Assembly: GCA_000002445.1 (NCBI GenBank)
Contig: CP000070.1
Span: forward strand, 1,440,001 to 1,504,000
Origin: Trypanosoma brucei
Taxonomy: Eukaryota
Reading direction: 5' to 3'
Length of the DNA stretch: 64,000 nucleotides
The position numbers and the translations under genes were made by a program. The notes beneath the pieces were generated by a model that searched no databases, had not been told where the DNA came from, and saw only the letters and a list, made by a program, of their open reading frames with translations. Positions 10,156 through 64,000 of the stretch are shown here, in pieces; positions within the stretch are counted from its first letter, which is position 1; every line of letters starts with the position of its first letter.

Positions 10156-10533
10156 AAAATACTATCCTTCAAGTTGCCTCATTTCTTTTTATTTTTCAAC
10201 ACTTTAATGGTTTTTTGTCGTTTTTTTTTCCAACTTGAACTACCTGTACTACCGTTGCATTTTTTTTTATGAAGTTGGGGTGTTCTCTGCCTTTTTTGTG
10301 GAGATGCAGCCATACTTTGTTACCACTAACGAGTGTGGTAGCTATCTTTTTCGGCTACAGTCGTCACGGATAAGGATGCCTTGCGTGCATTGTGCCGCCA
10401 TCCCTCCATGTATGTCTTCTTGATGATACTCGTTTACTTCTTTCTTTGACCTTTCCCACTGTTTATTTTTGCTGACGTGTACGAAAGAGGCACTGTGACA
10501 CTCCAGTTGCAATTAAGTAATAACACCTGAGGT

Positions 10534-12195
10534 ATGTATACAACAACAGACCTCATACAGACGCGGGTCGCTCCAGCACACTTGTTTGTTATTGTCTACT
10601 TTCTACAGTGGTTGTTTGTGGCGAGTACCGCATCTGGCGAGAGTGTTCATGCGATCTTCAAAATATCGAAATCTGGAGATGCACCCTTCTTCAAACAAGC
10701 TGAGAGGCACTGCGAGCGCGCTAAAATGCGTCTTGCGACGCCGACGACGGCAAAGGGGGCGACTGCTGTGAAGAAGTTGCTGAAACGCTGCGGTCCATCT
10801 GATGTACCCGTACTTGGCGGTGGCCTAAGCGTGCGATGCAGCAGTAACTCTTTTTTCTTCTTGTGGTCACCGAAACTGGATGAACCCAAGTACCCTGTTG
10901 AGGACACAGCACCATACTGCGGGGAACGCGATCCGCGAGGGTGGGGGACCAAGTGTGTGACAAGGAACAGGAGTGCGGGGAGGTTATTTTACCAATTTCA
11001 TACATCTGAGGGCGAGAAAGGGAACTGTACCGGACCTGTGACAATGGACTATGACCCGGCGATTCTCTATGAATTGGAGGTCCCTAGTGCTGGTGAGGAG
11101 GGTCTCCTCGCATGGGTTGTCTCGCGTGGTGGCAAGAACGGAAGCACTGCTGCGCTTAGGAGCCTTCGATCAGACTTGGAGGACACATCCCGCGCATACA
11201 TTGGAGATTCGAGCAAAATGATCGAGTACGTCCTGTGTGAGGGTGGAAGGTCCTCCGTCGTGTCTTCCACATCATGCTATTCCGTTTCTTATGCTTCTGT
11301 GCCAAATGTTGGCGGTTCAAGTCGAACGGGTGTTCATTGGTTGGTGATTGTCTTCCTCTCCTTCATCGGATTGATTGTGTTATGTGTAGTAACCCTGTCT
11401 ATTGTCGGTGGAGTTACGAAAAAAGTAACCGCAGGGAATGTTGATCGGGGAGACAACACTGGTAGTGGACGGCGACGAACCTCTTTGTCTCACAGCAGCT
11501 GGCATGTAATGAGCCAACCAGGAGGCAGCAGCGGGATTCAATATTCTCGTCGTGGTAGCCAGCCGGGTAACATCCTTTCTCCGCTTCAAGATGCTGCGAG
11601 CATTAACATGCAACGCTATGAAAGCGATGGGGTAGCCGCTGTACCTCGGCAAGGAAGCTTTAACGGCAGAAACACACAACAGCGAAGTAGTTTACCAACA
11701 AACGTAAATCAAGCGCAACAAAATTACAACACAAACAGAGTTACGTCACAAGTAAGCAATTATAGCGCAAGCTTACATCGTCTCGGGAGCTTCCGTGGCC
11801 CCATCATCCATCGTCAAGGAAGCTTCAACAACATTACCTCCGTACCAGCAGGGAATACCTATACTGGGGGTTTATCGCGTCCTGGGAGCTTCCGTGGCTC
11901 AAGCCCCAACCATCAAGGAAGTTTTAACCGTAGTGATATATTTCGCGATCCTAGTCTCTATGGTGAATCTCCTCCTCACGGTGATCCACGCTTGGGTTTA
12001 AACCCTCTTCGGGACATTGGCTACGACAGGGGAAATGCCCCAGAGCAGGTGAGCCTTTCTTCGGTCGGTATGGCCCAACAGGGCAACTTTGCAAACGTTG
12101 GTGCACGTGGCGGGAGCTTCCGAGGAATAAACCGCAACCAACAAGGAAGTTTCCGCAACTCGAACCCGCCGTCTGGTGGTTTGTTTAACACGTAG
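10534..12195 (+). CDS. Type-I membrane protein (553 aa), paralogue A. It has a signal peptide, a Cys-containing ectodomain, one transmembrane helix, and a Ser/Gly/Asn/Gln-rich cytoplasmic tail with reiterated R-x-G-S-F motifs.
   Basis: ATG at 10534. N-terminal hydrophobic segment LFVIVYFLQWLFVASTASG. Transmembrane helix VHWLVIVFLSFIGLIVLCVVTLSIVGGV. The tail contains RRGSQ, RQGSFN, RLGSFRG, RQGSFNN, RPGSFRG, HQGSFNR, RGGSFRG and QQGSFRN. Confidence 0.8.
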   Translation: MYTTTDLIQTRVAPAHLFVIVYFLQWLFVASTASGESVHAIFKISKSGDAPFFKQAERHCERAKMRLATPTTAKGATAVKKLLKRCGPSDVPVLGGGLSVRCSSNSFFFLWSPKLDEPKYPVEDTAPYCGERDPRGWGTKCVTRNRSAGRLFYQFHTSEGEKGNCTGPVTMDYDPAILYELEVPSAGEEGLLAWVVSRGGKNGSTAALRSLRSDLEDTSRAYIGDSSKMIEYVLCEGGRSSVVSSTSCYSVSYASVPNVGGSSRTGVHWLVIVFLSFIGLIVLCVVTLSIVGGVTKKVTAGNVDRGDNTGSGRRRTSLSHSSWHVMSQPGGSSGIQYSRRGSQPGNILSPLQDAASINMQRYESDGVAAVPRQGSFNGRNTQQRSSLPTNVNQAQQNYNTNRVTSQVSNYSASLHRLGSFRGPIIHRQGSFNNITSVPAGNTYTGGLSRPGSFRGSSPNHQGSFNRSDIFRDPSLYGESPPHGDPRLGLNPLRDIGYDRGNAPEQVSLSSVGMAQQGNFANVGARGGSFRGINRNQQGSFRNSNPPSGGLFNT

Positions 12196-13365: not shown

Positions 13366-16086
13366 ATGTCTGCCTCTCGATCTCCCTCTGGCAGTGGGAG
13401 TTTGTATCCCGCTGGCACCATGTCAACGGGATGTTCCCTGCCTTCATTGACGTGTCCCCCGAAACTTGGTGTGGGCAAGGTTGAGGGCAGTAGCGACACT
13501 GTTTCCATGGAGCGCTCGCAAGCTGGCAGCCAGTGGGCCGGCGGGACACATGCTGAAGAAGTGTGGGCATGCAAAAATGCTGCTTACACCAGGGCAATGA
13601 AATATTCCAAAGGATTGGTTGCGGACGTGGTGGATAGTTCGGTAGAATTCCTGCCACGCCGTCTCATGAGGAGTTCTGTGAACCACAGTATAAAGGACAG
13701 GAAATCGTCTTTCAGTGTCATGGCTGATGTTGGGCGCGACACGCAACAGCAATCTTTGGCTGCCACAAGCTGCAAAGGTACTTCATCCACTCCCATGAGT
13801 GAAGCCACATTCCCATTCCTTGACGGTGGGAAGGTACAACCAACGGATCCAGGGCACCTAAAAGCTGGAATTACGTACGATCCGCAGTCGTATGGATCGC
13901 TTTTACCCACGACGCTGAAGGTACGATCCGTTGAGGAAGCTGTGAGTGGCCCTCTAATGGGGGTTGCGGCTAACGAAATGTTTGCAAACCGAGATGCTAA
14001 ACAGATGTTGAGGGGTATTCTCCAGCCGGTACAGAAGACTTCGCAATTTTCACAGTACTTTGATCGACAACAGTTTGAGGGTAAAATGAGGCAGTTGGAG
14101 GAAAGCGCGCGACACTTCAGCAAATGTCTTGCTCAGCGTGTGTCTTCCAGTACCGGTGGTGGTGGTGTGATGATTGTCGTAAACGATTCTGATGATGGGA
14201 GCTCCGACGACGGTGGTTTGATGGGTGACGGTGTGAGACGCAGAGCTCGAAAGCCCGCCAAAATGGTAGACGAAGCGCGAGTAGCTGGCGACGCTGAATC
14301 TAATGCCCGGAAACAGCGACTTAACGCACTTCGTTGCACTCCACAGAATCTTTGTAGCTCGGTGGCGTTGCGTGATGCGTTGAAGAAAAGCAGGATTACG
14401 GTGAAGAAAGCACGATGCAGTGCTGTTAATGTAGCAAGACACAGCTCTGATCTACTGGAGCTTCTGCGGAGGAGAGGATCGAGGAGCACTGGTCCCCAGG
14501 AAGCGATGGTTGTTTTGCCCAACGAAGAGGTTTCATGGGACACGGGATCTGTTTCACCGAATAAGTGTACCCAAGCCTCATTTGCGTCGATACCGGATTC
14601 TGCATGTGGTAATGAGGGTCACCGCACCAAGGTTGTTACAGACCAGCGCGCTGTAACAATGCTGGAGTCGTTTTTGCGCAGCGGCAAGGGATTGACGACT
14701 CATGGTATTTTACCTGCAACACTGTATGGCAATCACTGTGGCCCCAATGGCGGCCAGTTGATCCCTGCACCAGAATCTTCGCGGTTACCATCAATGCTAG
14801 ATACTGCTTTCAGTGATGTTTTCTCCACTGGTGCATTATCACCAAGTGGGCAGCAGCTAGCGGCATCAGCAGAGTGCTTGCAACAGCAGAGGAAAAGTGT
14901 CCACCGTACGAAACCAGCCCGCCGTGTGATTCCTGTTGGTTACGGGATGAGTGCTCGTGCCCGTCAAAACTACGAGGCGATGGTGGAGAACTGGGAGGTG
15001 AGTGAGATCGAGCAAGAGCTTCGGAACGGGGAAGCATTATGCCACGCCCGCCGTCGGCTGCTGAAGCTCGTGTCTGAGCGCAAACGGTTGTTAAACGCGT
15101 CGCTCGCGCACTTCCACCATAACCCGCAGCAAGCCGTGTCGCTGCAGCGGCGTGAGATATTCCGGATGGTTGTCGAGGTTGATGCCGAGGACCGTAAGCA
15201 GGCGTGTTTTTCATTTGTTGATTTGCTTGAACAGTGCTGCCGGAACACTCTGGATGATGCCGCATGGTCTGTTGTTTCCGGCGCCTTGAAGTCTAGCCGC
15301 GATCTTATCCAACTCTCTCCACTACGGTGCAACCCGCAGAATTTCATTTCCATTCTGAACGACTGTCTGTCATTGCAGCATATCCGGGATCAGCGCGTTC
15401 AAGATGCTCTACAGTGGTTAGCAAAACTCTTTGGTGTATCGCAAGGGCAATTCAAGTCTGCACTACAATCATTGCACCACAACCTCAACAAGCCACGCGA
15501 TTACGAGGCACGGTTCCATGAAATTGACAGCCGCGTGTGTGGGATAGCAGCGTCCACTGAGAGACGTGTTCGTATTAAACTGCGCCGTTGCAACTTTCAG
15601 CTTCCCCGTCCTGTGGGTGCTGGCAACCAAATGAACCCCCTTGTCACCAGCAATGGTGATGGCGCTGTGGGCTGTGTGTTGGGTCCCAACACCTGTGTTG
15701 ATCGTCCTGAAGTATCGCTCGTTTTTCAGCTGGGAAATGAAACTGCCGTCTCCTCAACACTCAGCGCTCATCGTAGCGGTACCGGAGGGAGTGGTGATGT
15801 GGTGTGTGAGATGGTTGATGACGCCCCGTGCTATGTGGTTGACTTCAATGACGAAATTGTGCAGCTGAAGACTGTGGACACCAGTGTGGTACGCGTCTCT
15901 CTTTACTGCAACGGCAACGTTCTTTGCAGTGGCTTCTTGCACCTGTCCAAGTGTACTTTCCACAGTAATCGTACCTTATCTGTCATTCTTCGTCTCGACA
16001 ACAAAAGAATATTTGTGGCTGATCTGAGGATCAATGTGGAGCTTGTGTATGGAAGGGACCGCCGGGGGCGGGGTGGGAGAAGGTAG
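13366..16086 (+). CDS. Hypothetical protein of 906 aa (copy A). It has no recognisable domain and an acidic Asp/Ser-rich patch flanked by basic stretches.
   Basis: ATG-initiated 2.7-kb ORF duplicated at 19902-22622; the two copies differ at 3 amino-acid positions. Confidence 0.75.
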   Translation: MSASRSPSGSGSLYPAGTMSTGCSLPSLTCPPKLGVGKVEGSSDTVSMERSQAGSQWAGGTHAEEVWACKNAAYTRAMKYSKGLVADVVDSSVEFLPRRLMRSSVNHSIKDRKSSFSVMADVGRDTQQQSLAATSCKGTSSTPMSEATFPFLDGGKVQPTDPGHLKAGITYDPQSYGSLLPTTLKVRSVEEAVSGPLMGVAANEMFANRDAKQMLRGILQPVQKTSQFSQYFDRQQFEGKMRQLEESARHFSKCLAQRVSSSTGGGGVMIVVNDSDDGSSDDGGLMGDGVRRRARKPAKMVDEARVAGDAESNARKQRLNALRCTPQNLCSSVALRDALKKSRITVKKARCSAVNVARHSSDLLELLRRRGSRSTGPQEAMVVLPNEEVSWDTGSVSPNKCTQASFASIPDSACGNEGHRTKVVTDQRAVTMLESFLRSGKGLTTHGILPATLYGNHCGPNGGQLIPAPESSRLPSMLDTAFSDVFSTGALSPSGQQLAASAECLQQQRKSVHRTKPARRVIPVGYGMSARARQNYEAMVENWEVSEIEQELRNGEALCHARRRLLKLVSERKRLLNASLAHFHHNPQQAVSLQRREIFRMVVEVDAEDRKQACFSFVDLLEQCCRNTLDDAAWSVVSGALKSSRDLIQLSPLRCNPQNFISILNDCLSLQHIRDQRVQDALQWLAKLFGVSQGQFKSALQSLHHNLNKPRDYEARFHEIDSRVCGIAASTERRVRIKLRRCNFQLPRPVGAGNQMNPLVTSNGDGAVGCVLGPNTCVDRPEVSLVFQLGNETAVSSTLSAHRSGTGGSGDVVCEMVDDAPCYVVDFNDEIVQLKTVDTSVVRVSLYCNGNVLCSGFLHLSKCTFHSNRTLSVILRLDNKRIFVADLRINVELVYGRDRRGRGGRR

Positions 16087-17112: not shown

Positions 17113-18735
17113 ATGTATACAACAACAGACCTCATACAGACGCGGGTCGCTCCAGCACACTTGTTTGTTATTGTCTACTTTCTACAGTGGTTGTTTGTGG
17201 CGAGTACCGCATCTGGCGAGAGTGTTCATGCGATCTTCAAAATATCGAAATCTGGAGATGCACCCTTCTTCAAACAAGCTGAGAGGCACTGCGAGCGCGC
17301 TAAAATGCGTCTTGCGACGCCGACGACGGCAAAGGGGGCGACTGCTGTGAAGAAGTTGCTGAAACGCTGCGGTCCATCTGATGTACCCGTACTTGGCGGT
17401 GGCCTAAGCGTGCGATGCAGCAGTAACTCTTTTTTCTTCTTGTGGTCACCGAAACTGGATGAACCCAAGTACCCTGTTGAGGACACAGCACCATACTGCG
17501 GGGAACGCGATCCGCGAGGGTGGGGGACCAAGTGTGTGACAAGGAACAGGAGTGCGGGGAGGTTATTTTACCAATTTCATACATCTGAGGGCGAGAAAGG
17601 GAACTGTACCGGACCTGTGACAATGGACTATGACCCGGCGATTCTCTATGAATTGGAGGTCCCTAGTGCTGGTGAGGAGGGTCTCCTCGCATGGGTTGTC
17701 TCGCGTGGTGGCAAGAACGGAAGCACTGCTGCGCTTAGGAGCCTTCGATCAGACTTGGAGGACACATCCCGCGCATACATTGGAGATTCGAGCAAAATGA
17801 TCGAGTACGTCCTGTGTGAGGGTGGAAGGTCCTCCGTCGTGTCTTCCACATCATGCTATTCCGTTCCTTTTATCCTATCAGTTGCAAGTAGCGATGACAA
17901 GTCGCATTTTGATCATCGGCACAACGTCACTATTGGTATATTGGTTTTAATTGTTTTAATTTTAATTATTGTAGCCGCTTTCTTAATTTTGTGGCTCCTT
18001 TCACGGAACCGTCCGGCAGGTGATGTTGAGGAAAACCGGCGCAACGGATCAGATGTACAGAGAACTGTCGTTGAGTCGGTTGGTGATTTAGGTGGAACTG
18101 TTAGATCCGAAAGCTACTCGGGGCGAGGTAGCAAGTCGGGTGACAATCTTTGTCGTCCGGAAAATGTAAACGGTAATTGTCCCCAGGTGAATAATGGATT
18201 CTGTGTTAACGGATCCCCCCAACAAGAAAATTTGCAAATGAATGCCCCTGGACAACAACCAAATTTTAACTACCACAGCACAACACCCGAAATACAAACA
18301 TACAGTGGCGAAATGGAACTACGGACTAACTTTGGTGGTCCTATCTTGTACCGCCAAGGAAGCTTCAGACAAAATATAACCTCCGACGTCAATCCAACAC
18401 CGCTAAGCGCCACACAGCGTCCTGGGAGCTTCCGTGGCTCAAGCCCCAACCATCAGGGTTGTTTCAACCGTAGTGATGTATTTCGTGAGCCTAGTCTCTA
18501 TGGTGAATCTCCTCCTCACGGTGATCCACGCTTGGGTTTAAACCATCCTCGGGACATTGGCTACGACAGGGGAAATGCCCCGGAGCAGGTGAGCCTTTCT
18601 TCGGTCGGTATGGCCCAACAGGGCAACTTTGCAAACGTTGGTGCACGTGGCGGGAACTTCCGAGGAATAAACCGCAACCAACAAGGAAGTTTCCGCAACT
18701 CGAACCCGCCGTCTGGTGGTTTGTTTAACACGTAG
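17113..18735 (+). CDS. Type-I membrane protein (540 aa), paralogue B. The N-terminal 263 aa are identical to paralogue A. The transmembrane and juxtamembrane segment is diverged. The C-terminal ~100 aa are near-identical.
   Basis: ATG at 17113. Transmembrane helix IGILVLIVLILIIVAAFLILWLL. The tail carries YRQGSFRQN, RPGSFRG, GGNFRG and QQGSFRN. Confidence 0.8.
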   Translation: MYTTTDLIQTRVAPAHLFVIVYFLQWLFVASTASGESVHAIFKISKSGDAPFFKQAERHCERAKMRLATPTTAKGATAVKKLLKRCGPSDVPVLGGGLSVRCSSNSFFFLWSPKLDEPKYPVEDTAPYCGERDPRGWGTKCVTRNRSAGRLFYQFHTSEGEKGNCTGPVTMDYDPAILYELEVPSAGEEGLLAWVVSRGGKNGSTAALRSLRSDLEDTSRAYIGDSSKMIEYVLCEGGRSSVVSSTSCYSVPFILSVASSDDKSHFDHRHNVTIGILVLIVLILIIVAAFLILWLLSRNRPAGDVEENRRNGSDVQRTVVESVGDLGGTVRSESYSGRGSKSGDNLCRPENVNGNCPQVNNGFCVNGSPQQENLQMNAPGQQPNFNYHSTTPEIQTYSGEMELRTNFGGPILYRQGSFRQNITSDVNPTPLSATQRPGSFRGSSPNHQGCFNRSDVFREPSLYGESPPHGDPRLGLNHPRDIGYDRGNAPEQVSLSSVGMAQQGNFANVGARGGNFRGINRNQQGSFRNSNPPSGGLFNT

Positions 18736-19901: not shown

Positions 19902-22622
19902 ATGTCTGCCTCTCGATCTCCCTCTGGCAGTGGGAGTTTGTATCCCGCTGGCACCATGTCAACGGGATGTTCCCTGCCTTCATTGACGTGTCCCCCGAAA
20001 CTTGGTGTGGGCAAGGTTGAGGGCAGTAGCGACACTGTTTCCATGGAGCGCTCGCAAGCTGGCAGCCAGTGGGCCGGCGGGACACATGCTGAAGAAGTGT
20101 GGGCATGCAAAAATGCTGCTTACACCAGGGCAATGAAATATTCCAAAGGATTGGTTGCGGACGTGGTGGATAGTTCGGTAGAATTCCTGCCACGCCGTCT
20201 CATGAGGAGTTCTGTGAACCACAGTATAAAGGACAGGAAATCGTCTTTCAGTGTCATGGCTGATGTTGGGCGCGACACGCAACAGCAATCTTTGGCTGCC
20301 ACAAGCTGCAAAGGTACTTCATCCACTCCCATGAGTGAAGCCACATTCCCATTCCTTGACGGTGGGAAGGTACAACCAACGGATCCAGGGCACCTAAAAG
20401 CTGGAATTACGTACGATCCGCAGTCGTATGGATCGCTTTTACCCACGACGCTGAAGGTACGATCCGTTGAGGAAGCTGTGAGTGGCCCTCTAATGGGGGT
20501 TGCGGCTAACGAAATGTTTGCAAACCGAGATGCTAAACAGATGTTGAGGGGTATTCTCCAGCCGGTACAGAAGACTTCGCAATTTTCACAGTACTTTGAT
20601 CGACAACAGTTTGAGGGTAAAATGAGGCAGTTGGAGGAAAGCGCGCGACACTTCAGCAAATGTCTTGCTCAGCGTGTGTCTTCCAGTACCGGTGGTGGTG
20701 GTGTGATGATTGTCGTAAACGATTCTGATGATGGGAGCTCCGACGACGGTGGTTTGATGGGTGACGGTGTGAGACGCAGAGCTCGAAAGCCCGCCAAAAT
20801 GGTAGACGAAGCGCGAGTAGCTGGCGACGCTGAATCTAATGCCCGGAAACAGCGACTTAACGCACTTCGTTGCACTCCACAGAATCTTTGTAGCTCGGTG
20901 GCGTTGCGTGATGCGTTGAAGAAAAGCAGGATTACGGTGAAGAAAGCACGATGCAGTGCTGTTAATGTAGCAAGACACAGCTCTGATCTACTGGAGCTTC
21001 TGCGGAGGAGAGGATCGAGGAGCACTGGTCCCCAGGAAGCGATGGTTGTTTTGCCCAACGAAGAGGTTTCATGGGACACGGGATCTGTTTCACCGAATAA
21101 GTGTACCCAAGCCTCATTTGCGTCGATACCGGATTCTGCATGTGGTAATGAGGGTCACCGCACCAAGGTTGTTACAGACCAGCGCGCTGTAACAATGCTG
21201 GAGTCGTTTTTGCGCAGCGGCAAGGGATTGACGACTCATGGTATTTTACCTGCAACACTGTATGGCAATCACTGTGGCCCCAATGGCGGCCAGTTGATCT
21301 CTGCACCAGAATCTTCGCGGTTACCATCAATGCTAGATACTGCTTTCAGTGATGTTTTCTCCACTGGTGCATTATCACCAAGTGGGCAGCAGCTAGCGGC
21401 ATCAGCAGAGTGCTTGCAACAGCAGAGGAAAAGTGTCCACCGTACGAAACCAGCCCGCCGTGTGATTCCTGTTGGTTACGGGATGAGTGCTCGTGCCCGT
21501 CAAAACTACGAGGCGATGGTGGAGAACTGGGAGGTGAGTGAGATCGAGCAAGAGCTTCGGAACGGGGAAGCATTATGCCACGCCCGCCGTCGGCTGCTGA
21601 AGCTCGTGTCTGAGCGCAAACGGTTGTTAAACGCGTCGCTCGCGCACTTCCACCATAACCCGCAGCAAGCCGTATCGCTGCAGCGGCGTGAGATATTCCG
21701 GATGGTTGTCGAGGTTGATGCCGAGGACCGTAAGCAGGCGTGTTTTTCATTTGTTGATTTGCTTGAACAGTGCTGCCGGAACACTCTGGATGATGCCGCA
21801 TGGTCTGTTGTTTCCGGCGCCTTGAAGTCTAGCCGCGATCTTATCCAACTCTCTCCACTACGGTGCAACCCGCAGAATTTCATTTCCATTCTGAACGACT
21901 GTCTGTCATTGCAGCATATCCGGGATCAGCGCGTTCAAGATGCTCTACAGTGGTTAGCAAAACTCTTTGGTGTATCGCAAGGGCAATTCAAGTCTGCACT
22001 ACAATCATTGCACCACAACCTCAACAAGCCACGCGATTACGAGGCACGGTTCCATGAAATTGACAGCCGCGTGTGTGGGATAGCAGCGTCCACTGAGAGA
22101 CGTGTTCGTATTAAACTGCGCCGTTGCAACTTTCAGCTTCCCCGTCCTGTGGGTGCTGGCAGCCAAATGAACCCCCTTGTCACCAGCAATGGTGATGGCG
22201 CTGTGGGCTGTGTGTTGGGTCCCAACACCTGTGTTGATCGTCCTGAAGTATCGCTCGTTTTTCAGCTGGGAAATGAAACTGCCGTCTCCTCAACACTCAG
22301 CGCTCATCGTAGCGGTACCGGAGGGAGTGGTGATGTGGTGTGTGAGATGGTTGATGACGCCCCGTGCTATGTGGTTGACTTCAATGACGAAATTGTGCAG
22401 CTGAAGCCTGTGGACACCAGTGTGGTACGCGTCTCTCTGTCCTGCAACGGCAACGTTCTTTGCAGTGGCTTCTTGCACCTGTCCAAGTGTACCTTCCACA
22501 GTAATCGTACCTTATCTGTCATTCTTCGTCTCGACAACAAAAGAATATTTGTGGCTGATCTGAGGATCAATGTGGAGCTTGTGTATGGAAGGGACCGCCG
22601 GGGGCGGGGTGGGAGAAGGTAG
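19902..22622 (+). CDS. Hypothetical protein of 906 aa (copy B).
   Basis: Substitutions relative to copy A: P to S at IPAPESS / ISAPESS, N to S at GAGNQ / GAGSQ, and T to P with Y to S at LKTVDTSVVRVSLY / LKPVDTSVVRVSLS. Confidence 0.75.
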   Translation: MSASRSPSGSGSLYPAGTMSTGCSLPSLTCPPKLGVGKVEGSSDTVSMERSQAGSQWAGGTHAEEVWACKNAAYTRAMKYSKGLVADVVDSSVEFLPRRLMRSSVNHSIKDRKSSFSVMADVGRDTQQQSLAATSCKGTSSTPMSEATFPFLDGGKVQPTDPGHLKAGITYDPQSYGSLLPTTLKVRSVEEAVSGPLMGVAANEMFANRDAKQMLRGILQPVQKTSQFSQYFDRQQFEGKMRQLEESARHFSKCLAQRVSSSTGGGGVMIVVNDSDDGSSDDGGLMGDGVRRRARKPAKMVDEARVAGDAESNARKQRLNALRCTPQNLCSSVALRDALKKSRITVKKARCSAVNVARHSSDLLELLRRRGSRSTGPQEAMVVLPNEEVSWDTGSVSPNKCTQASFASIPDSACGNEGHRTKVVTDQRAVTMLESFLRSGKGLTTHGILPATLYGNHCGPNGGQLISAPESSRLPSMLDTAFSDVFSTGALSPSGQQLAASAECLQQQRKSVHRTKPARRVIPVGYGMSARARQNYEAMVENWEVSEIEQELRNGEALCHARRRLLKLVSERKRLLNASLAHFHHNPQQAVSLQRREIFRMVVEVDAEDRKQACFSFVDLLEQCCRNTLDDAAWSVVSGALKSSRDLIQLSPLRCNPQNFISILNDCLSLQHIRDQRVQDALQWLAKLFGVSQGQFKSALQSLHHNLNKPRDYEARFHEIDSRVCGIAASTERRVRIKLRRCNFQLPRPVGAGSQMNPLVTSNGDGAVGCVLGPNTCVDRPEVSLVFQLGNETAVSSTLSAHRSGTGGSGDVVCEMVDDAPCYVVDFNDEIVQLKPVDTSVVRVSLSCNGNVLCSGFLHLSKCTFHSNRTLSVILRLDNKRIFVADLRINVELVYGRDRRGRGGRR

Positions 22623-57335: not shown

Positions 57336-59315
57336 ATGTGCGGGATATTCGGTTACATTCTTCACCGCATTCCCTGCACAACCCGTGATGTCCTCAATGT
57401 GTTGCTCGACAGTTTACAGCGCATGGAATACCGCGGTTACGATAGCGCGGGTTTGTGTGTTGACGATGTGAAATCAAAAAAGCATATTGTGGTGCGCAGC
57501 GTAGGAAACATATCAAAGCTTCGGGAACGCGTTTTCAGTGGTTGTGCCGATTTGGACTTTAATGCACAGCTGGAAAATCACGAAGGAATAGCGCACACTC
57601 GTTGGGCAACACACGGACCGCCGTCTGAGGCAAACTGCCACCCACAGGCAAGTAATAATATGGAGTTCGTTGTGGTTCACAATGGCATCATCACTAACTT
57701 CATGACCATCAAGCAAATGCTGCTGGAAGAGGGATACCACTTCAGCAGTGACACGGACACGGAAGTAATTGTTGTGTTAGCTGAACATATCTTTTCGATG
57801 GATCACTCGATTAGCTTCGCTGACCTTGCCGGGAAAGTAATGGCAGAGTTGGATGGTGCCTACGCACTGTTAATTAAATCCGTCCATTTCCCTGGGGAAC
57901 TTATAGCGTGTAAGGAAGCCTCGCCGCTGGTAATAGGCCTACAAAACGGTAAGAGCAATGGAACAGCAAGCGGAATCGCAAATGGGTCTGTTATGAACAA
58001 GTTGTTTTTCTCCTCTGACGTCGCGTCCTTTCTTCCTTATACGCAGGAGGTTATTTTCCTAGAAGACGGCGATGTGGCCCATTACTCAAAAGGTGCTCTG
58101 ACGCTTTACAATGATGCCACACCAGTTAGTCGCACATCACAAACTGTCGATGTGTCACCCGAGGGACTCTGCAAGGGGGCATATCCAAGTTTCATGCTGA
58201 AGGAAATATACGAGCAACCGGAAAGTGTGTCACGTTCAATGCGTGATCGGATTGATTTTAACACACGTGAGGTTACAATCAAAGAGATGAGCGATGGTGT
58301 TCGCACGACGCTGCTCAGCGCCCGCCGCCTGATGCTGGTGGCGTGCGGAACCTCATTCCACAGTTGCGTTGCTGCAAGACCGATATTTGAGGAGCTTTTA
58401 CCAAATATTTCCATTACACTTGAGAATGCGCCGGACCTCCTTGACAGAGAACCGAGAATAGGGAGTGATGATGTTTGCATATTTGTCTCTCAGTCCGGTG
58501 AAACGGCGGATACCCTCATGGCTTTACAGTATTGCAAGAAGTACGAGGCAATGATTGTAGGACTAACAAACGTACCGGGCTCAAGCGTGCTGCGACTATC
58601 TGACTTCGCCCTGTTGCTCAACGCTGGTGTGGAAGTGGGCGTTGCATCCACGAAAGCATACACATCACAGGTTGTAGTTTTAACGCTGTTAGCCCTTTTT
58701 CTAAGCAAGGAAAACTGTAGTGGGAACAGTTCCCATTCACACGGTGGTAGTCAATCACCAATACAAAAGCGACGCTTAGAAATTATCGATGGGTTGGCGG
58801 CTCTTCCGGGAGCACTTTCGCACTGCCTGAAGTGTACTAATGATGTTGCCACGAAATTGGCCGAGGAGTTGTGTGATGCGAAAGCTATCCTTATTCTTGG
58901 TCGCGGCTATGATTACGCCACCGCGTTGGAGGCTGCTTTGAAGGTTAAGGAACTAACTTACATCCACACAGAGGGTATCCACTGCGGTGAACTCAAACAT
59001 GGGCCTCTTGCTCTAGTGGATGAGCATTCCACAATTGTAGCTTTTTGTCCCCATGATAAATTTTTGGGGCGCAGCAAAAGTGCCATTCAACAGGTAAAAG
59101 CACGCGGTGGGCGTGTGGTGGCCATAACGACAGAACCGGATGCGGAGTTGGTTAGCGCTACTTCGCGTTGTGTGGAAGTTCCAGCCATAGTGGATTGCCT
59201 TCAGGGCATCGTGAATGTAGTGCCATTGCAGTTACTCGCCCACCACCTTGCAGTGCGACGTGGCCTAAATGTGGACTGCCCGAGGAATCTTGCGAAGAGT
59301 GTAACGGTTCAATGA
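57336..59315 (+). CDS. GFAT: Glutamine:fructose-6-phosphate amidotransferase (glucosamine-6-phosphate synthase), 659 aa.
   Basis: N-terminal MCGIFGYI with an Ntn Cys2 amidotransferase domain (RGYDSAGL, HTRWATHG). Two SIS domains (DDVCIFVSQSGETADT, KAILILGRGYDYATALEAALKVKELTYIH). Matches the kinetoplastid GFAT lacking the long fungal insert. Confidence 0.95.
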   Translation: MCGIFGYILHRIPCTTRDVLNVLLDSLQRMEYRGYDSAGLCVDDVKSKKHIVVRSVGNISKLRERVFSGCADLDFNAQLENHEGIAHTRWATHGPPSEANCHPQASNNMEFVVVHNGIITNFMTIKQMLLEEGYHFSSDTDTEVIVVLAEHIFSMDHSISFADLAGKVMAELDGAYALLIKSVHFPGELIACKEASPLVIGLQNGKSNGTASGIANGSVMNKLFFSSDVASFLPYTQEVIFLEDGDVAHYSKGALTLYNDATPVSRTSQTVDVSPEGLCKGAYPSFMLKEIYEQPESVSRSMRDRIDFNTREVTIKEMSDGVRTTLLSARRLMLVACGTSFHSCVAARPIFEELLPNISITLENAPDLLDREPRIGSDDVCIFVSQSGETADTLMALQYCKKYEAMIVGLTNVPGSSVLRLSDFALLLNAGVEVGVASTKAYTSQVVVLTLLALFLSKENCSGNSSHSHGGSQSPIQKRRLEIIDGLAALPGALSHCLKCTNDVATKLAEELCDAKAILILGRGYDYATALEAALKVKELTYIHTEGIHCGELKHGPLALVDEHSTIVAFCPHDKFLGRSKSAIQQVKARGGRVVAITTEPDAELVSATSRCVEVPAIVDCLQGIVNVVPLQLLAHHLAVRRGLNVDCPRNLAKSVTVQ

Positions 59316-60015: not shown

Positions 60016-60235
60016 TTCCACCTGACTTCGTTGTCTTGCCCTCATTTTTATCTTCGTTACACGTTTGCTTCACTGATGGAAACGGAGTCGACGTTGGGAA
60101 GCATGGAAATGAAAAGGGGAAGAGAGGAGTCACACTAAAGCGAAGGGACCACAAGTAACATGAGCGAATAATGTGGGTTCTGTTTTGTGCACCCCGTTGT
60201 TGTGGATGCCAGTTACTCTAGTCAGTTTTGTGGAT

Positions 60236-60701
60236 CAGCTGTCCACGCCCGAACAAACCAGCAACCGAGTAATTGTTGTGGTTGATTGAAGGTTTGCGAA
60301 GCAAATCTACCACCTTCAGTTGTGTCCTTGTGCACCGAACCTCTCGGTTTCAGTGAATGTTGTGTGGTGACTGTTTTCTTTCCTTTTCTTTGTTCTTTTC
60401 GTTCTTTCCGTGTCATATCTCCTCTTTTTTCCTCGGACAGATGATGTTTATCGATTTCGAAACTTACTCACACTTGAGGCTCCTGCGACCAGGACCCTCT
60501 TTCCTGTTTTTTCTGGATGGTGGAGGATTTATGAATCATTGTGGCTGTGCAACATATCTGTTTAACACCTCTACTGCACTCATCGTCCCTCCACAATTAT
60601 GTTCCGTTGTTTCCTTAATTTGCTTTTAGAAAGGTAAGCTCTGGTATTCGTTTGCTCTTCACAATATGTTGGGGAAACATATTTTCACTTGTTATGACGA
60701 T
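60236..60701 (+). repeat. 466-bp direct repeat copy 1, lying upstream of the first MOB1 gene. It contains a long polypyrimidine tract.
   Basis: Near-identical to 62551-63016 (offset 2315 bp). The tract is ttttctttccttttctttgttcttttcgttctttccgtgtcatatctcctcttttttcctcggacag. Confidence 0.9.
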
Positions 60702-61092
60702 GCTGCTGCTTGCTTTTGCGTTGAGCAAATCAATCACCCGTCGCAACACTGTTAAAACTAAACTGTGACGCGAGAACAAAACCACACTACCAGTACGCTG
60801 GAGCTGTTGTTTTGCATGCCTAAATGTATCTGTAAACCAAAGCTGGTGAATGCTCCGTACCTAAATGTGAAAAAGTTGGATGTGCAAGGAGGCAGCTAGC
60901 TAGCTTATCTCCTAGCGAGTCGGATCTTCTTAATATATTTCTTCTCTTTCCCATAATGACGTTCAATGCGAGCACTCGGGCACAAGAAAAAAAAGAATGT
61001 TCCCTACTTTCATCCCTCCCTTTATTCAATTTGTTTAAAATAAAAGCATTGTGGTAAAATAAATTCCACAAGCGGCATAGAAAATTATTCTC

Positions 61093-61719
61093 ATGGAAAA
61101 GCATAAGGAAGGAACTGAACGTTACAACCTCCACAAGTTTGCCAAATCACTTGTGCGCTCAGGTGACCTCAGTGCTGCTGTAAAGCTACCGCAAGGTACA
61201 GATCTGAATCATTGGCTTTCCGTACACACTGTAGATTTCTACAACATCACTAATGTTTTGTACGGCTCTCTAACAGAGTTTTGCACGAACAGCAGTTGTC
61301 CTGTCATGTCGTCAGGTCCACGCTATGAGTATTTATGGCGTGACCCGCCGGAATATCCAAAAGCAACGAAGGTGAGCGCACCGGAGTATGTGAGATTGTT
61401 GATGGAGTGGATCGAGCGGCAGATCAATGATGAACGTGTGTTTCCGTCTGAGGATCGTAATCCCTATCCACCAGATTTCGCGGATAGAGTGAAGGCGTGT
61501 TTCAAGCGACTGTTCCGCGTTTATGCACACGTTTACTATTCCCACTTTGCGAAGATTCGTGAGTTGCAGGAGGAATCTCACATCAACACCGCACTGAAAC
61601 ATTTTATGTATTTTGTGTGGGAATTTGATCTGATTCCTCGTGAGGAGGTGTCTCCGCTGCGTGAATTGCTGGTAAACTTAATGGGTCAGCGCGCGAAGGA
61701 AAAGTTGGAGGTTCCGTAA
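61093..61719 (+). CDS. MOB1: MOB1/phocein-family kinase co-activator, 208 aa. This is the short-N-terminus paralogue.
   Basis: Mob1 core: LPQGTDLNHWLSVHTVDFYNITNVLYGSLTEFCT..SCPVMSSGPRYEYLWRD...EYVRLLMEWIERQINDERVFPS..YPPDF...HVYYSHF. It starts MEKHKEG and so lacks the conserved N-terminal KPKK segment. Confidence 0.9.
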   Translation: MEKHKEGTERYNLHKFAKSLVRSGDLSAAVKLPQGTDLNHWLSVHTVDFYNITNVLYGSLTEFCTNSSCPVMSSGPRYEYLWRDPPEYPKATKVSAPEYVRLLMEWIERQINDERVFPSEDRNPYPPDFADRVKACFKRLFRVYAHVYYSHFAKIRELQEESHINTALKHFMYFVWEFDLIPREEVSPLRELLVNLMGQRAKEKLEVP

Positions 61720-62550
61720 ACAATTTGTGTGCGCGCCCTTGTGTTGGTGCCTTCTTCTAGCAGGGATGATTTCTGCTCATTTTTTAATAAATCGAAGTGC
61801 ACATCCTCATTGGTTGATGGTAATGTTGGTCCTGAATGTTATTTCTCTTTATTAATCAATTTTTGCAGTGACAATTGGTAGAGCAAGTGATGGGTTGATT
61901 CAAAGCCTTCACTTTCGTCCCAACTCACGCAGTTATTAATGATGGTGAAATCTTTTTTTTTAATCACTGACCGGAGAAGAACCACTGGGTTGCTTTACCT
62001 TTCATACACCTTCGTTTTGGTATGGTGAAGCCTGAAACTTCTGTCCGCCTTACAAAAAGGCTGTTTCCATCCACTTTCTCTTTTATATTGATTCGACAAT
62101 TCGATTTTTATTGGATAGTGTTGTGTTGGGCTTGGACGGGTTTAATTAATAGTCCGGATGACGGTTGTTGTGACAGAATGGACATGTTTGGCTTGTGCGA
62201 GGGAGAGGTTTGTACACGCGTGTTTCACATCCTTTTTACGTAATTGTTGCAATCGTAAAGTGAATTTATTTTGTGGATGATGGGATGTACTGAGGAAGGT
62301 AAGGAGTCGTTTATAGACATGTTGTGGAAAGCTCCACGGTGTGAAGCGTTCTAAGTGGCGCTTCTTCTTAAGAGTGAACGGATTTAATGGTAAGTGTGCT
62401 CCTACTTGGTGGATAGTGTCACGTTATTTTTCGCAGAAGGGGTGCCTCTATTTGTGCAGTGCACATTGATTTATGCCCTTGATAGGAAATTTATGTATAT
62501 CATTAATTGTTGATTGAAAAAGAAAAATTAGTTTGGCTCCACAGACTCTT

Positions 62551-63016
62551 CAGCTGTCCACGCCCGAACAAACCAGCAACCGAGTAATTGTTGTGGTTGA
62601 TTGAAGGTTTGCGAAGCAAATCTACCACCTTCAGTTGTGTCCTTGTGCACCGAACCTCTCGGTTTCAGTGAATGTTGTGTGGTGACTGTTTTCTTTCCTT
62701 TTCTTTGTTCTTTTCGTTCTTTCCGTGTCATATCTCCTCTTTTTTCCTCGGACAGATGATGTTTATCGATTTCGAAACTTACTCACACTTGAGGCTCCTG
62801 CGACCAGGACCCTCTTTCCTGTTTTTTCTGGATGGTGGAGGATTTATGAATCATTGTGGCTGTGCAACATATCTGTTCAACACCTCTACTGCACTCATCG
62901 TCCCTCCACAATTATGTTCCGTTGTTTCCTTAATCTGCTTTTAGAAAGGTAAGCTCTGGTATTCGTTTGCTCTTCACAATATGTTAGGGAAACATATTTT
63001 CACTTGTTATGACGAT
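62551..63016 (+). repeat. 466-bp direct repeat copy 2, lying upstream of the second MOB1 gene.
   Basis: Same sequence as 60236-60701. Confidence 0.9.
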
Positions 63017-63384
63017 ACTATAGGGAGCTGCATGTGAAGGACTGCCGTTGTGGGTCCTCGAGCGGCTGTGTGGATACAATAATCTTTCATTTCGCTTTTA
63101 CAAGCACTTGCGCGCATATTTCCTTCCATCTTCTTCTTGCCATGTGCCCGTCTTTTGCGGGTGCTACGCTAACTTGTCCAAAGGTAAAGAATGTTGGCGA
63201 CACAACATACCTGTTTGGGGAGGTGGTTGATCCTGGAAATTGCCGCTCGGAGAAATAACTCAGTTAATATTTATTGCGCCCTGGTACAAGTACACACCGG
63301 AGAGATGCCTGTTACCCATCTTGTCGGCATCACGCACTACTCACTCACCCCACCTTCACCAATCCGTCTATTCTAACAAGGCCT

Positions 63385-64000
63385 ATGAAGCGTTTTAAGG
63401 CAAAGCTCTTCGACTCCGACAGAACATACAAACCTAAGAAAAAGCATAAGGAAGGAACTGAACGTTACAACCTCCACAAGTTTGCCAAATCACTTGTGCG
63501 CTCAGGTGACCTCAGTGCTGCTGTCAAGCTACCGCAAGGTGCCGATCTGAATCATTGGCTTTCCGTACACACTGTAGATTTCTACAACATCACTAATGTT
63601 TTGTACGGCTCTCTAACAGAGTTTTGCACGAACAGCAGTTGTCCTGTCATGTCGTCAGGTCCACGCTATGAGTATTTATGGCGTGACCCGCCGGAATATC
63701 CAAAAGCAACGAAGGTGAGCGCACCGGAGTATGTGAGATTGTTGATGGAGTGGATCGAGCGGCAGATCAATGATGAACGTGTGTTTCCGTCTGAGGATCG
63801 TAATCCCTATCCACCAGATTTCGCGGATAGAGTGAAGGCGTGTTTCAAGCGACTGTTCCGCGTTTATGCACACGTTTACTATTCCCACTTTGCGAAGATT
63901 CGTGAGTTGCAGGAGGAATCTCACATCAACACCGCACTGAAACATTTTATGTATTTTGTGTGGGAATTTGATCTGATTCCTCGTGAGGAGGTGTCTCCGC
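63385..64000 (+). CDS. MOB1: MOB1 paralogue 2, partial (runs off the window end). It has a longer canonical N-terminus, MKRFKAKLFDSDRTYKPKKKHKEG...
   Basis: From aagcataaggaagg (63442) the DNA is near-identical to copy 1 (61099 onward). The ATG at 63385 is in the same frame and adds 23 residues including TYKPKKK. No stop occurs before position 64000. Confidence 0.85.
   Translation, partial: MKRFKAKLFDSDRTYKPKKKHKEGTERYNLHKFAKSLVRSGDLSAAVKLPQGADLNHWLSVHTVDFYNITNVLYGSLTEFCTNSSCPVMSSGPRYEYLWRDPPEYPKATKVSAPEYVRLLMEWIERQINDERVFPSEDRNPYPPDFADRVKACFKRLFRVYAHVYYSHFAKIRELQEESHINTALKHFMYFVWEFDLIPREEVSP

What the first reader, a model, noticed from the sequence alone, without database searches (positions are those of the whole stretch)
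60236..64000. Tandem MOB1 paralogues differing only by the N-terminal regulatory extension, each preceded by an identical 466-bp upstream repeat.
Copy 1 (61093-61719) starts MEKHKEG. Copy 2 (63385 onward) starts MKRFKAKLFDSDRTYKPKKKHKEG and is then nucleotide-near-identical. The extra 23 residues contain the conserved basic T-x-K-P-K-K segment. In other eukaryotes that segment carries the Hippo/MST-kinase phosphorylation site that relieves Mob1 autoinhibition. The locus therefore encodes one canonical regulatable Mob1 and one N-terminally truncated form that may be constitutively open. The 466-bp repeats (60236-60701 and 62551-63016) contain the long pyrimidine tracts. They probably supply both genes with identical trans-splicing signals, while the about 400 bp between each repeat and its ATG is unique.
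Basis: partly seen in the sequence, partly recalled or inferred. Interest (0 to 1): 0.5.

Follow-up and report, generated by a model that had tools for sequence, protein, structure and literature searches.

The report
Known trypanosome MOB1A/MOB1B tandem gene pair
This is the already published pair of neighbouring MOB1 cell-division genes of Trypanosoma brucei, one full-length and one lacking the first 17 residues; the repeated upstream block ends the upstream gene's mRNA and starts a short extra RNA, and does not supply the MOB1 splice sites.

Summary
The window is T. brucei TREU927 chromosome 7. Copy 1 is MOB1A (Tb927.7.5570, 208 aa) and copy 2 is MOB1B (Tb927.7.5580, 225 aa). Both were deposited in 2001, published in 2005 and listed as a tandem duplication in 2010.

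Corrections:
- The upstream repeat is 467 bp with 3 mismatches, not identical.
- The net N-terminal difference is 17 residues: 19 MOB1B residues replace "ME".
- TREU927 has one further amino-acid difference (T36/A53).

MOB1A cannot make the long N-terminus. Its mapped 5' UTR is 46 nt, contains no ATG and carries an in-frame TAG. Its Met1 is Lys18 of MOB1B (AAG to ATG).

MOB1B keeps the near-universal T-Y-K-P-K-K motif. A phosphopeptide assigned to Y15, next to T14, is recorded in vivo.

The "constitutively open" idea is plausible, because mouse MOB1B lacking 16 or 21 N-terminal residues loses most autoinhibition. It is untested in trypanosomes, and kinetoplastid MOB1 lacks T35 and the acidic kinase-binding residues.

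The trans-splicing idea is wrong for the MOB1 genes. Both mapped acceptor sites lie in the unique spacers. The repeat holds a poly(A) site plus the acceptor of a short transcript (Tb7.NT.60), and its two copies evolve in concert.

Verdict: already known, low interest.

The parts
57336..59315 (+). Upstream gene: glucosamine-fructose-6-phosphate aminotransferase (Tb927.7.5560). Its full-length mRNA runs to window 60931, so its 3' UTR contains repeat copy 1.
   Evidence: ORF and Pfam SIS/GATase hits. Kolev 2010 Table S3 gives CDS 1497336-1499315 and transcript 1496839-1500931, flagged 'alt 3UTR'. Window coordinate = chromosome coordinate minus 1,440,000.
60235..60701 (+). Repeat block U, copy 1 (467 nt). 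It contains a 60-nt pyrimidine tract (60374-60434). It also contains the homologue of the mapped poly(A) site (60533) and the homologue of the mapped splice acceptor (AG 60628-60629).
   Evidence: The processing sites in this copy are inferred from homology with copy 2 and from the 'alt 3UTR' flag on the upstream gene.
60702..61092 (+). Unique spacer A. It holds the 3' end of the upstream full-length mRNA (60931). It also holds the pyrimidine tracts and the AG (61045-61046) used to trans-splice MOB1A, the 46-nt 5' UTR (61047-61092) and an in-frame TAG at 61078-61080.
   Evidence: No similarity to spacer B above shuffles. Kolev transcript start 1501047. The AG was checked and the UTR has no ATG.
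61093..61719 (+). MOB1A (Tb927.7.5570), 208 aa. Met1 corresponds to Lys18 of MOB1B (ATG against AAG). It lacks the T-Y-K-P-K-K motif. It keeps the helix equivalent to the mammalian Switch helix (residues 9-23).
   Evidence: Exact match to AAZ12621 / XP_846180 / AAL10512. Alignments. AlphaFold2 model.
61720..62848 (+). MOB1A 3' UTR (1129 nt, major poly(A) site at 62848). Positions 61720-61749 are shared with MOB1B, 61750-62549 are unique, and 62550-62848 lie inside repeat copy 2.
   Evidence: Kolev Tables S3 and S13. Homology limits.
62550..63016 (+). Repeat block U, copy 2 (467 nt, 3 mismatches to copy 1). The MOB1A poly(A) site lies at repeat position 299 (62848). A 96-nt stretch that is 66% pyrimidine follows. 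A splice acceptor AG lies at 62943-62944 (repeat position 394-395).
62945..63272 (+). Published novel spliced-leader, poly(A) transcript Tb7.NT.60 (327 nt). It starts in the last 72 nt of repeat copy 2 and runs into unique spacer B. It holds only short ORFs (18 and 38 aa).
   Evidence: Kolev 2010 Table S7 gives 1502945-1503272, + strand. ORF scan.
63017..63384 (+). Unique spacer B. It holds the poly(A) site of Tb7.NT.60 (63272), a C-rich pyrimidine stretch (63340-63375), the AG (63379-63380) used to trans-splice MOB1B, and a 4-nt 5' UTR.
   Evidence: Kolev Table S1 gives transcript start 1503381. Sequence.
63385..64000 (+). MOB1B (Tb927.7.5580), 225 aa. It is cut by the window end and its stop codon lies at chromosome position 1504062. 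Codons 1-19 (63385-63441) are specific to MOB1B. T14 is 63424-63426 and Y15 is 63427-63429.
   Evidence: Full protein P0125 = AAZ12622 / XP_846181. Sequence beyond the window from L001. Phosphopeptide LFDSDRTYKPK.

Best explanation
The locus is the known MOB1A/MOB1B tandem pair of Trypanosoma brucei (Tb927.7.5570 and Tb927.7.5580, chromosome 7).

Origin. A duplication of about 2.3 kb, seen so far only in the T. brucei group, left two blocks that are still nearly identical:
- a 467-bp non-coding block U;
- the coding block, from codon 18 of MOB1B to about 30 nt past the stop codon.
Non-homologous spacers separate these blocks. Block U is kept alike by gene conversion. The coding block gives no clear signal either way.

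The two proteins. MOB1B is the ancestral full-length form. MOB1A is a 5'-truncated copy whose start codon arose from Lys18 (AAG to ATG). It therefore lacks the N-terminal strand region, the conserved T14-Y-K-P-K-K phosphorylation motif and most of the basic linker. It keeps the Switch-helix equivalent and the whole core domain.

Expression signals. Each gene has its own trans-splice site in its unique spacer (5' UTRs of 46 and 4 nt) and its own 3' UTR, so the two can be regulated independently after transcription. Block U is not the MOB1 splicing signal. It is a duplicated RNA-processing cassette: a poly(A) site, a pyrimidine-rich stretch and a splice acceptor. The cassette ends the mRNA of the preceding gene and starts a short RNA of low coding potential (Tb7.NT.60, and by homology a twin upstream of MOB1A).

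Inferred mechanism (my probability about 0.35). MOB1B activity is gated by phosphorylation of its N-terminal segment. MOB1A is a naturally de-repressed form that does not respond to that input.
For: Identity:
- The copy-1 protein is an exact match to the TREU927 entries and to AAL10512. Copy 2 matches AAZ12622.
- Published gene coordinates fit the window with a fixed offset of 1,440,000.
- Published descriptions: PMC2865264, PMC7761452, PMC2684140, and PMC2854126 Table 1, which lists MOB1 as a tandem duplicate.

Architecture:
- Repeat limits and mismatches.
- Spacers and 3' flanks are non-homologous.
- The start codon aligns with Lys18.
- Mapped acceptor and poly(A) sites. All four acceptors follow an AG.

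Concerted evolution of block U:
- Paralogues differ at 3 sites within TREU927 and at 6 within L001. Orthologues between the two assemblies differ at 8-12.
- At four sites both TREU927 copies share one base, while both L001 copies and the gambiense copy share the other.

Lineage restriction: the 208-aa form appears only in T. brucei-group entries. T. vivax, T. congolense, T. cruzi, T. grayi, T. theileri and others have forms of 224-231 aa.

Functional inference:
- T14 aligns with human T12. T14, P17 and K19 are at least 90% conserved.
- A MOB1B phosphosite at Y15 has localisation probability 0.97 and rises 2.8-fold through the cell cycle (PMC6907760 S2 Table).
- Mouse MOB1B lacking 16 or 21 N-terminal residues keeps 10-20% of autoinhibition (PMC4917820).
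- The AlphaFold2 model has helix 26-40 and low confidence over residues 1-20 (residues 1-11 below pLDDT 50). It superposes on autoinhibited mouse MOB1B 5b5v at 1.4 A, against 10.6 A on the open form 5brk.
Against: Against the functional inference:
- The mammalian autoinhibition contacts are only partly present. Human T35 is L37, H24 is E26, E51 is A53 (T36 in TREU927 MOB1A) and E55 is H57.
- E51 and E55 contact the NDR2 helix, and E51K impairs NDR binding (PMC5612953).
- Neither MOB1A nor MOB1B bound or activated PK50 or PK53 in vitro or in cell lysates (PMC2865264). The partner whose binding would be gated is therefore unknown.
- The mass-spectrometry site was assigned to Y15, not T14.
- No upstream MST-like kinase was examined here.
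- The MOB1A copy in assembly GCA_003543875.1 has a 1-nt deletion in codon 36. If real, MOB1A would be dispensable in that strain.

Against the processing-cassette reading:
- The first 328 nt of block U are identical in both copies. The poly(A) site at 62848 therefore cannot be assigned to one copy from short reads.
- The sites in copy 1 are inferred by homology only.
- I could not read the primary paper (Hammarton 2005).
Confidence: 0.85

Rival explanations
1. The two genes are functionally redundant dosage duplicates. The missing N-terminus of MOB1A is a neutral accident of where the duplication broke, rescued by a chance AAG-to-ATG change, and has no regulatory consequence.
For: No functional difference between MOB1A and MOB1B was found in the literature I could read. 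Both failed to bind or activate PK50 and PK53. The acidic surface and T35 needed for the mammalian mechanism are absent from both. The homology boundary coincides exactly with the start codon. One assembly shows a frameshifted MOB1A.
Against: The deleted segment holds one of the most conserved features of MOB1 N-termini. It is phosphorylated in vivo in MOB1B, with a change through the cell cycle. MOB1A keeps an intact ORF in TREU927, in the DAL972 assembly and in T. equiperdum OVI. It has its own mapped splice acceptor and poly(A) site. T. brucei is stated to express two MOB1 proteins (PMC2865264).
Confidence: 0.45
2. One reading: the 467-bp repeats carry the pyrimidine tracts that give both MOB1 genes identical trans-splicing signals, so both mRNAs have long 5' UTRs that start inside the repeat.
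For: The longest pyrimidine tract of each intergenic region (60374-60434 and 62689-62749, followed by AG 60439 and 62754) does lie in the repeat. The complete per-site tables of Kolev 2010 are truncated in the held copy, so minor acceptor sites cannot be excluded.
Against: The published primary acceptor sites are at 61047 (46 nt before the MOB1A ATG) and 63381 (4 nt before the MOB1B ATG), both in unique sequence. The MOB1A mRNA ends at a poly(A) site inside repeat copy 2, and another transcript (Tb7.NT.60) starts there. Neither MOB1 gene is flagged 'alt 5UTR'.
Confidence: 0.05
3. MOB1A is an unexpressed pseudogene-like remnant of the duplication.
For: It is truncated relative to every other kinetoplastid MOB1. 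It is frameshifted in assembly GCA_003543875.1. It was not called as a gene there.
Against: The ORF is intact in three other assemblies. It has its own mapped mRNA, 61047-62848. The literature states that both proteins are expressed. The single-base deletion may be a long-read assembly error.
Confidence: 0.05

Closest known systems
T. brucei MOB1A (MOB1-1, AAL10512, Tb927.7.5570) and MOB1B (MOB1-2, AAL10513, Tb927.7.5580); Hammarton et al. 2005, Ma et al. 2010
   Same: These are the same genes. The copy-1 protein is an exact sequence match. Published coordinates coincide with the window. The 17-residue offset matches the published S23/S40 numbering. The published 92.4% identity equals 208/225.
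   Different: Nothing differs. The papers I could read do not spell out the link to the Thr12-type site, the position of the mapped splice sites relative to the repeat, or the concerted evolution of the non-coding block.
Mammalian MOB1A/MOB1B, autoinhibited and relieved by MST1/2 phosphorylation of T12 and T35 (PDB 5b5v, 5brk; PMC4917820)
   Same: The fold is shared (rmsd 1.4 A to 5b5v). MOB1B shares the zinc ligands, the basic phosphate pocket, the T-F/Y-K-P-K-K motif and a helix at the Switch-helix position. MOB1A corresponds to the engineered forms lacking 16 to 21 N-terminal residues, which lose most autoinhibition.
   Different: The T35, H24, E51 and E55 equivalents are not conserved. No NDR/LATS partner binding was detected in T. 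brucei. In mammals the two paralogues are both full-length, and the short form exists only as a laboratory construct.
Leishmania donovani MOB1 (PDB 9uo7, released 2026-04-01)
   Same: It is 77% identical over the structural alignment and has a full-length N-terminus with the same motif (MKLFGSSLFDSDKTYRPKKKHKEG). It is the best structural match, with TM-score 0.92/0.96.
   Different: It resembles the long form only, and no truncated sister gene is known from the data seen here. I found no accompanying paper.
Trypanosome tandem gene duplicates that evolve in concert as sequence mosaics (Jackson et al. 2010, PMC2854126)
   Same: The pair shows homogenised blocks next to unrelated flanks, with paralogues more alike within a genome than orthologues between genomes. 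The MOB1 pair is listed in that paper's Table 1.
   Different: Here one of the homogenised blocks is a non-coding RNA-processing cassette rather than coding sequence.

Membership tests
MOB1 / Mob1-phocein family (PF03637) | Significant match to the family profile over the whole core domain | tested here: met
   Copy 1 scores E = 2.6e-70 (236 bits, cut-off 27) and copy 2 scores E = 8.3e-70. Both cover profile positions 3-170 or 3-169 of 170.
MOB1 / Mob1-phocein family (PF03637) | Four zinc ligands (human C79, C84, H161, H166) | tested here: met
   C81, C86, H163 and H168 of MOB1B are invariant in a 43-sequence alignment.
MOB1 / Mob1-phocein family (PF03637) | MOB core fold | tested here: met
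   The AlphaFold2 model has pLDDT 87. Foldseek gives 9uo7 at TM-score 0.92, and human and mouse MOB1 at rmsd 1.1-1.9 A.
MOB1 subfamily (as opposed to MOB2, MOB3 or phocein) | Closest to MOB1 sequences, with the basic phosphate-binding pocket (human K153, R154, R157) | tested here: met
   phmmer against PDB gives MOB1A/B at E = 1e-71, yeast Mob2 at 1e-39 and phocein at 1e-6. The F-K-R-L-F-R-V segment is present, with R156 and R159 invariant.
Phosphorylation-gated, autoinhibited MOB1 (mammalian type) | N-terminal Thr12 within T-F/Y-K-P-K-K | tested here: met
   Met for MOB1B only: T14-Y-K-P-K-K aligns with human T12-F-K-P-K-K. Not met for MOB1A, which starts at the residue equivalent to human K16.
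Phosphorylation-gated, autoinhibited MOB1 (mammalian type) | Second site Thr35 on the Switch helix | tested here: not met
   The aligned residue is L37 in MOB1B and L20 in MOB1A. The nearby S40/S23 is the published in vivo phosphosite.
Phosphorylation-gated, autoinhibited MOB1 (mammalian type) | Switch helix docked on an acidic kinase-binding surface (H24 to E51/E55 salt bridges) | tested here: inconclusive
   A helix is predicted at residues 26-40, and the model superposes on the closed form 5b5v. The salt-bridge residues are E26, A53 (or T36) and H57.
Phosphorylation-gated, autoinhibited MOB1 (mammalian type) | Phosphorylation of the N-terminal segment in vivo | tested here: inconclusive
   Published phosphoproteomics reports peptide LFDSDRTYKPK with the site assigned to Y15 at probability 0.97, not T14 (PMC6907760 S2 Table). 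The kinase is unknown.
Phosphorylation-gated, autoinhibited MOB1 (mammalian type) | Binds and activates an NDR/LATS kinase, with binding increased by loss or phosphorylation of the N-terminus | not testable with these tools
   The literature is negative so far. Neither paralogue bound or activated PK50 or PK53 (PMC2865264).
Trypanosome tandem duplicate under gene conversion | Paralogues within a genome are more alike than orthologues between genomes, with shared genome-specific variants | tested here: met
   Met for block U: 3 and 6 paralogue differences against 8-12 orthologue differences, plus four sites with genome-specific shared bases. The coding block is less clear: 3 and 7 against 4-8.

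The most novel reading that the evidence does not exclude
MOB1A is a naturally evolved, constitutively de-repressed MOB1, equivalent to the laboratory truncations lacking 16-21 N-terminal residues. It arose in the T. brucei lineage, cannot receive the N-terminal phosphorylation input that MOB1B receives at T14/Y15, and has entirely different UTRs. The parasite could then set the ratio of kinase-gated to kinase-independent MOB1 after transcription, for example between life-cycle stages. This could help explain the stage-specific cytokinesis phenotypes of MOB1 depletion.
Probability: 0.25. Interest if true: 0.4.

Novelty: already known. Interest (0 to 1): 0.12.

Why it matters
The gene pair is textbook material for trypanosome cell-cycle researchers, so the finding adds no new entity.

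What this analysis adds is modest but usable:
- It states explicitly that the only systematic difference between MOB1A and MOB1B is loss of the most conserved N-terminal phospho-motif. That segment is now known to be phosphorylated in vivo. This gives a clean test of N-terminal gating in an organism where the MOB1 partner is still unknown.
- It corrects the reading of the repeated block. The block is a duplicated cassette of poly(A) site and splice acceptor, kept alike by gene conversion, and not the MOB1 splicing signal.

It is also a caution for annotation. The T. b. gambiense reference collapses the pair into one short-form hybrid gene.

Tried and rejected
- The primary paper (Hammarton 2005, PMC2244713) is not held. 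Its content is cited only through later papers.
- A literature search for MOB1 together with 'Tb927.7.55' found nothing. The gene identifiers came from the Kolev 2010 supplement instead.
- The Nilsson 2010 supplement has no entry for these genes, and no Siegel 2010 supplement is held. The complete acceptor and poly(A) site tables of Kolev 2010 are truncated in the held copy. Minor sites, and any use of the long pyrimidine tract and AG at 60439/62754, therefore remain unknown.
- Urbaniak 2013 phosphoproteomics is not held.
- No T. congolense locus is on record, so the duplication could not be dated against the nearest outgroup. The T. vivax intergenic regions share nothing detectable with block U or the spacers.
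- Small-ORF lead, rejected. A 62-codon ORF (60441-60629) opens directly after the AG that follows the long pyrimidine tract. All three variable sites inside it are synonymous third positions. However, a mapped poly(A) site falls inside it and a mapped acceptor sits on its stop codon. The longer 90-aa version is broken in one copy. Three sites are too few to carry weight.
- An Rfam scan of the whole window at the gathering thresholds gave 0 matches, a tRNA scan gave 0, and a tandem-repeat scan gave 0. Block U is not a known RNA family.
- The single hybrid MOB1 in the T. b. gambiense DAL972 assembly looked like loss of the long form. The genome paper marks this locus as one where the missing sequence is present in the reads, so it is an assembly omission.
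- A Logan contig with a MOB1A 5' end and a MOB1B 3' flank (L004) begins only 22 nt upstream of the ATG and carries no spliced-leader sequence. It says nothing about splicing and may be a graph chimera.
- No paper was found for PDB 9uo7.

Full report
**What is there**

- One ORF of 208 aa lies at 61093-61719 and starts MEKHKEG.
- A second ORF starts at 63385 with MKRFKAKLFDSDRTYKPKKKHKEG and runs off the window.
- Both match the Pfam Mob1/phocein profile over its whole length, with E = 2.6e-70 and 8.3e-70.

The upstream repeat is 60235-60701 against 62550-63016. It is 467 nt at offset 2315, with three mismatches (60563, 60620, 60671). It is therefore 99.4% identical rather than identical.

The coding repeat begins at the copy-1 start codon (61093 aligns with 63436, offset 2343).
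- Up to the window end it has three mismatches in 561 nt. One is synonymous.
- Two lie in one codon and give T36 in copy 1 against A53 in copy 2.
- In another T. brucei-group assembly that covers the whole locus, the coding repeat stops about 30 nt after the stop codon.

The sequences between repeat and ATG, and the 3' flanks, are no more alike than shuffled controls.

**Identity**

The copy-1 protein is an exact match to AAZ12621 / XP_846180 of T. brucei brucei TREU927 and to AAL10512. The neighbouring accession AAZ12622 / XP_846181 (225 aa) is copy 2.

Coordinates in the Kolev et al. 2010 supplement fit the window with a constant offset of 1,440,000:
- Tb927.7.5560: 1497336-1499315
- Tb927.7.5570: 1501093-1501719
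- Tb927.7.5580: 1503385-1504062

The window is therefore chromosome 7, positions 1,440,001-1,504,000.

The two genes are MOB1A (MOB1-1) and MOB1B (MOB1-2).
- They were published by Hammarton et al. in 2005. I could not read that paper.
- They were used again by Ma et al. 2010, who give Ser-23 of MOB1A as Ser-40 of MOB1B, a 17-residue offset.
- A 2020 review gives 92.4% identity, which equals 208/225.
- The T. b. gambiense genome paper lists 'Cell-cycle associated MOB1' as one copy in its assembly against a tandem pair in T. b. brucei. It adds a mark meaning that the missing sequence was found in the reads.

The entity is therefore already known.

**The N-terminal difference**

Nineteen MOB1B-specific residues are replaced by Met-Glu in MOB1A, a net 17 residues and not 23. 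Met1 of MOB1A aligns with Lys18 of MOB1B (ATG GAA against AAG AAA), and homology stops exactly there.

MOB1A cannot make the long form.
- An in-frame TAG lies at 61078-61080.
- The mapped mRNA begins at 61047.
- Its 46-nt leader has no ATG.

In the alignment with human MOB1A, T14 of MOB1B matches T12 within T-F/Y-K-P-K-K. In 43 diverse MOB1 sequences, T14, P17 and K19 are conserved in at least 90%.

The 208-aa form occurs only in T. brucei-group entries. T. vivax, T. congolense, T. cruzi, T. grayi, T. theileri, T. rangeli and others have forms of 224-231 aa. The long form is therefore ancestral.

Published phosphoproteomics of procyclic cells lists a MOB1-B phosphosite on peptide LFDSDRTYKPK (PMC6907760 S2 Table).
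- The site is assigned to Y15 with localisation probability 0.97.
- It rises to 2.8-fold over early G1.

This shows that the extension is translated and phosphorylated in vivo, at or next to T14.

**How far the mammalian mechanism transfers**

In mouse MOB1B, residues 5-9 form a strand, 10-23 a basic linker and 24-38 the Switch helix that blocks the kinase-binding face. Removing 16 or 21 residues leaves only 10-20% of the autoinhibition (PMC4917820). MOB1A corresponds to such a truncation.

An AlphaFold2 model of MOB1B has mean pLDDT 87.
- Residues 1-11 are below pLDDT 50, the block of residues 11-20 averages about 60, and there is a helix at 26-40.
- It superposes on the autoinhibited mouse structure 5b5v at 1.4 A, against 10.6 A on the open phospho-form 5brk.
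- Its best match is the new L. donovani MOB1 structure 9uo7.

Several points count against simple transfer.
- T35 is Leu, H24 is Glu, E51 is Ala (Thr in TREU927 MOB1A) and E55 is His.
- E51 and E55 contact the NDR2 helix, and E51K weakens NDR binding (PMC5612953).
- Neither MOB1A nor MOB1B bound or activated PK50 or PK53.
- The basic phosphate pocket is conserved.

A phosphorylated N-terminus docking into that pocket is therefore the part of the mechanism most likely to survive. I rate the 'gated MOB1B, ungated MOB1A' model at about 0.35, and simple redundancy at about 0.45.

**The 467-bp repeat**

Published mapping says otherwise.
- The MOB1A acceptor is the AG at 61045-61046, giving a 46-nt 5' UTR.
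- The MOB1B acceptor is the AG at 63379-63380, giving a 4-nt 5' UTR.
- Both lie in the unique spacers.

The mapped transcripts place the repeat as follows.

| Feature | Window coordinates | Source |
|---|---|---|
| Full-length aminotransferase mRNA, 3' end (contains all of repeat copy 1) | 60931 | |
| MOB1A major poly(A) site (repeat position 299 of copy 2) | 62848 | |
| Novel transcript Tb7.NT.60 (starts after AG 62943-62944, repeat position 396; 1502945-1503272) | 62945-63272 | |

The order downstream of MOB1A is therefore:
1. poly(A) site at 62848;
2. 96 nt that are 66% pyrimidine;
3. acceptor at 62945;
4. a 327-nt RNA holding only 18- and 38-codon ORFs;
5. poly(A) site at 63272;
6. 108 nt;
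7. the MOB1B acceptor.

By homology the same layout is expected upstream of MOB1A: poly(A) near 60533, acceptor at 60630, RNA to 60931, then 115 nt to the MOB1A acceptor. This fits the 'alt 3UTR' flag on the aminotransferase gene, but that step is inferred.

Two caveats apply. The first 328 nt of the repeat are identical in both copies, so short reads there cannot be assigned to one copy. The held per-site tables are truncated.

**Evolution**

Within TREU927 the two repeat copies differ at 3 sites, and within assembly GCA_003543875.1 at 6. Orthologous copies between the two assemblies differ at 8-12 sites. At four positions both TREU927 copies share one base, while both copies of the other assembly and the gambiense copy share another. 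This is the signature of gene conversion after the strains separated.

The coding block is less clear. T. vivax has an independent, larger tandem duplication that includes the aminotransferase gene and only long-form MOB1.

**Verdict**

- Paralogue identity and the motif are right.
- 'Constitutively open' is plausible but untested.
- The trans-splicing role of the repeat is wrong.

The finding is already known and of low interest.

Noticed in passing
window 13366-16086 and 19902-22622 (+), with 17113-18735 between: Two 906-aa ORFs are 902/906 identical and have no Pfam match. They lie 6536 nt apart, with a 540-aa ORF between them. This is a second, larger tandem or segmental duplication in the same window.
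   Followed up: partly
L002 (T. b. gambiense DAL972, FN554970.1) 9143-10860: The reference assembly holds a single hybrid MOB1. It has the MOB1A upstream region and start, the MOB1B-type codon 36 and the MOB1B 3' flank, so only the short form is annotated there. The genome paper marks this locus as an assembly omission.
   Followed up: yes
L001 (GCA_003543875.1, CM010678.1) 7715-8369: The MOB1A copy has a 1-nt deletion in codon 36 that breaks the reading frame, and it was not called as a gene. This is either a long-read indel error or a real loss of MOB1A in that strain.
   Followed up: partly
L005/L006 (T. vivax SOPI01000350.1): There is an independent tandem duplication of a unit of about 10 kb: aminotransferase, MOB1 (225 aa), then a 1149-aa gene. 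All MOB1 copies are the long form.
   Followed up: no
window 63381-63385: Kolev 2010 lists Tb927.7.5580 among ORFs with a 'misannotated start, acceptor within the ORF'. Yet the coordinate given is 4 nt upstream of the ATG. The phosphopeptide beginning at L8 shows that the annotated start region is translated. The reason for the listing is unexplained.
   Followed up: partly
window 61198-61200 versus 63541-63543: The only amino-acid difference inside the shared block (T36 in MOB1A, A53 in MOB1B) falls on the position of human E51, a kinase-contact and Switch-helix-contact residue. Other T. brucei-group MOB1A entries have Ala there, so it may be a strain polymorphism.
   Followed up: partly
window 60441-60629 and 62756-62944: A 62-codon ORF opens directly after the AG that follows the 60-nt pyrimidine tract. 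All three variable sites within it across five copies are synonymous third positions. A mapped poly(A) site lies inside it, so it is probably not coding.
   Followed up: yes
L003 (T. equiperdum OVI, CZPT02000357.1) 1-2230: The scaffold joins a MOB1B upstream fragment, MOB1A and the MOB1B 3' flank across runs of N, in the wrong order. Both gene types are present, but the locus is misassembled.
   Followed up: yes
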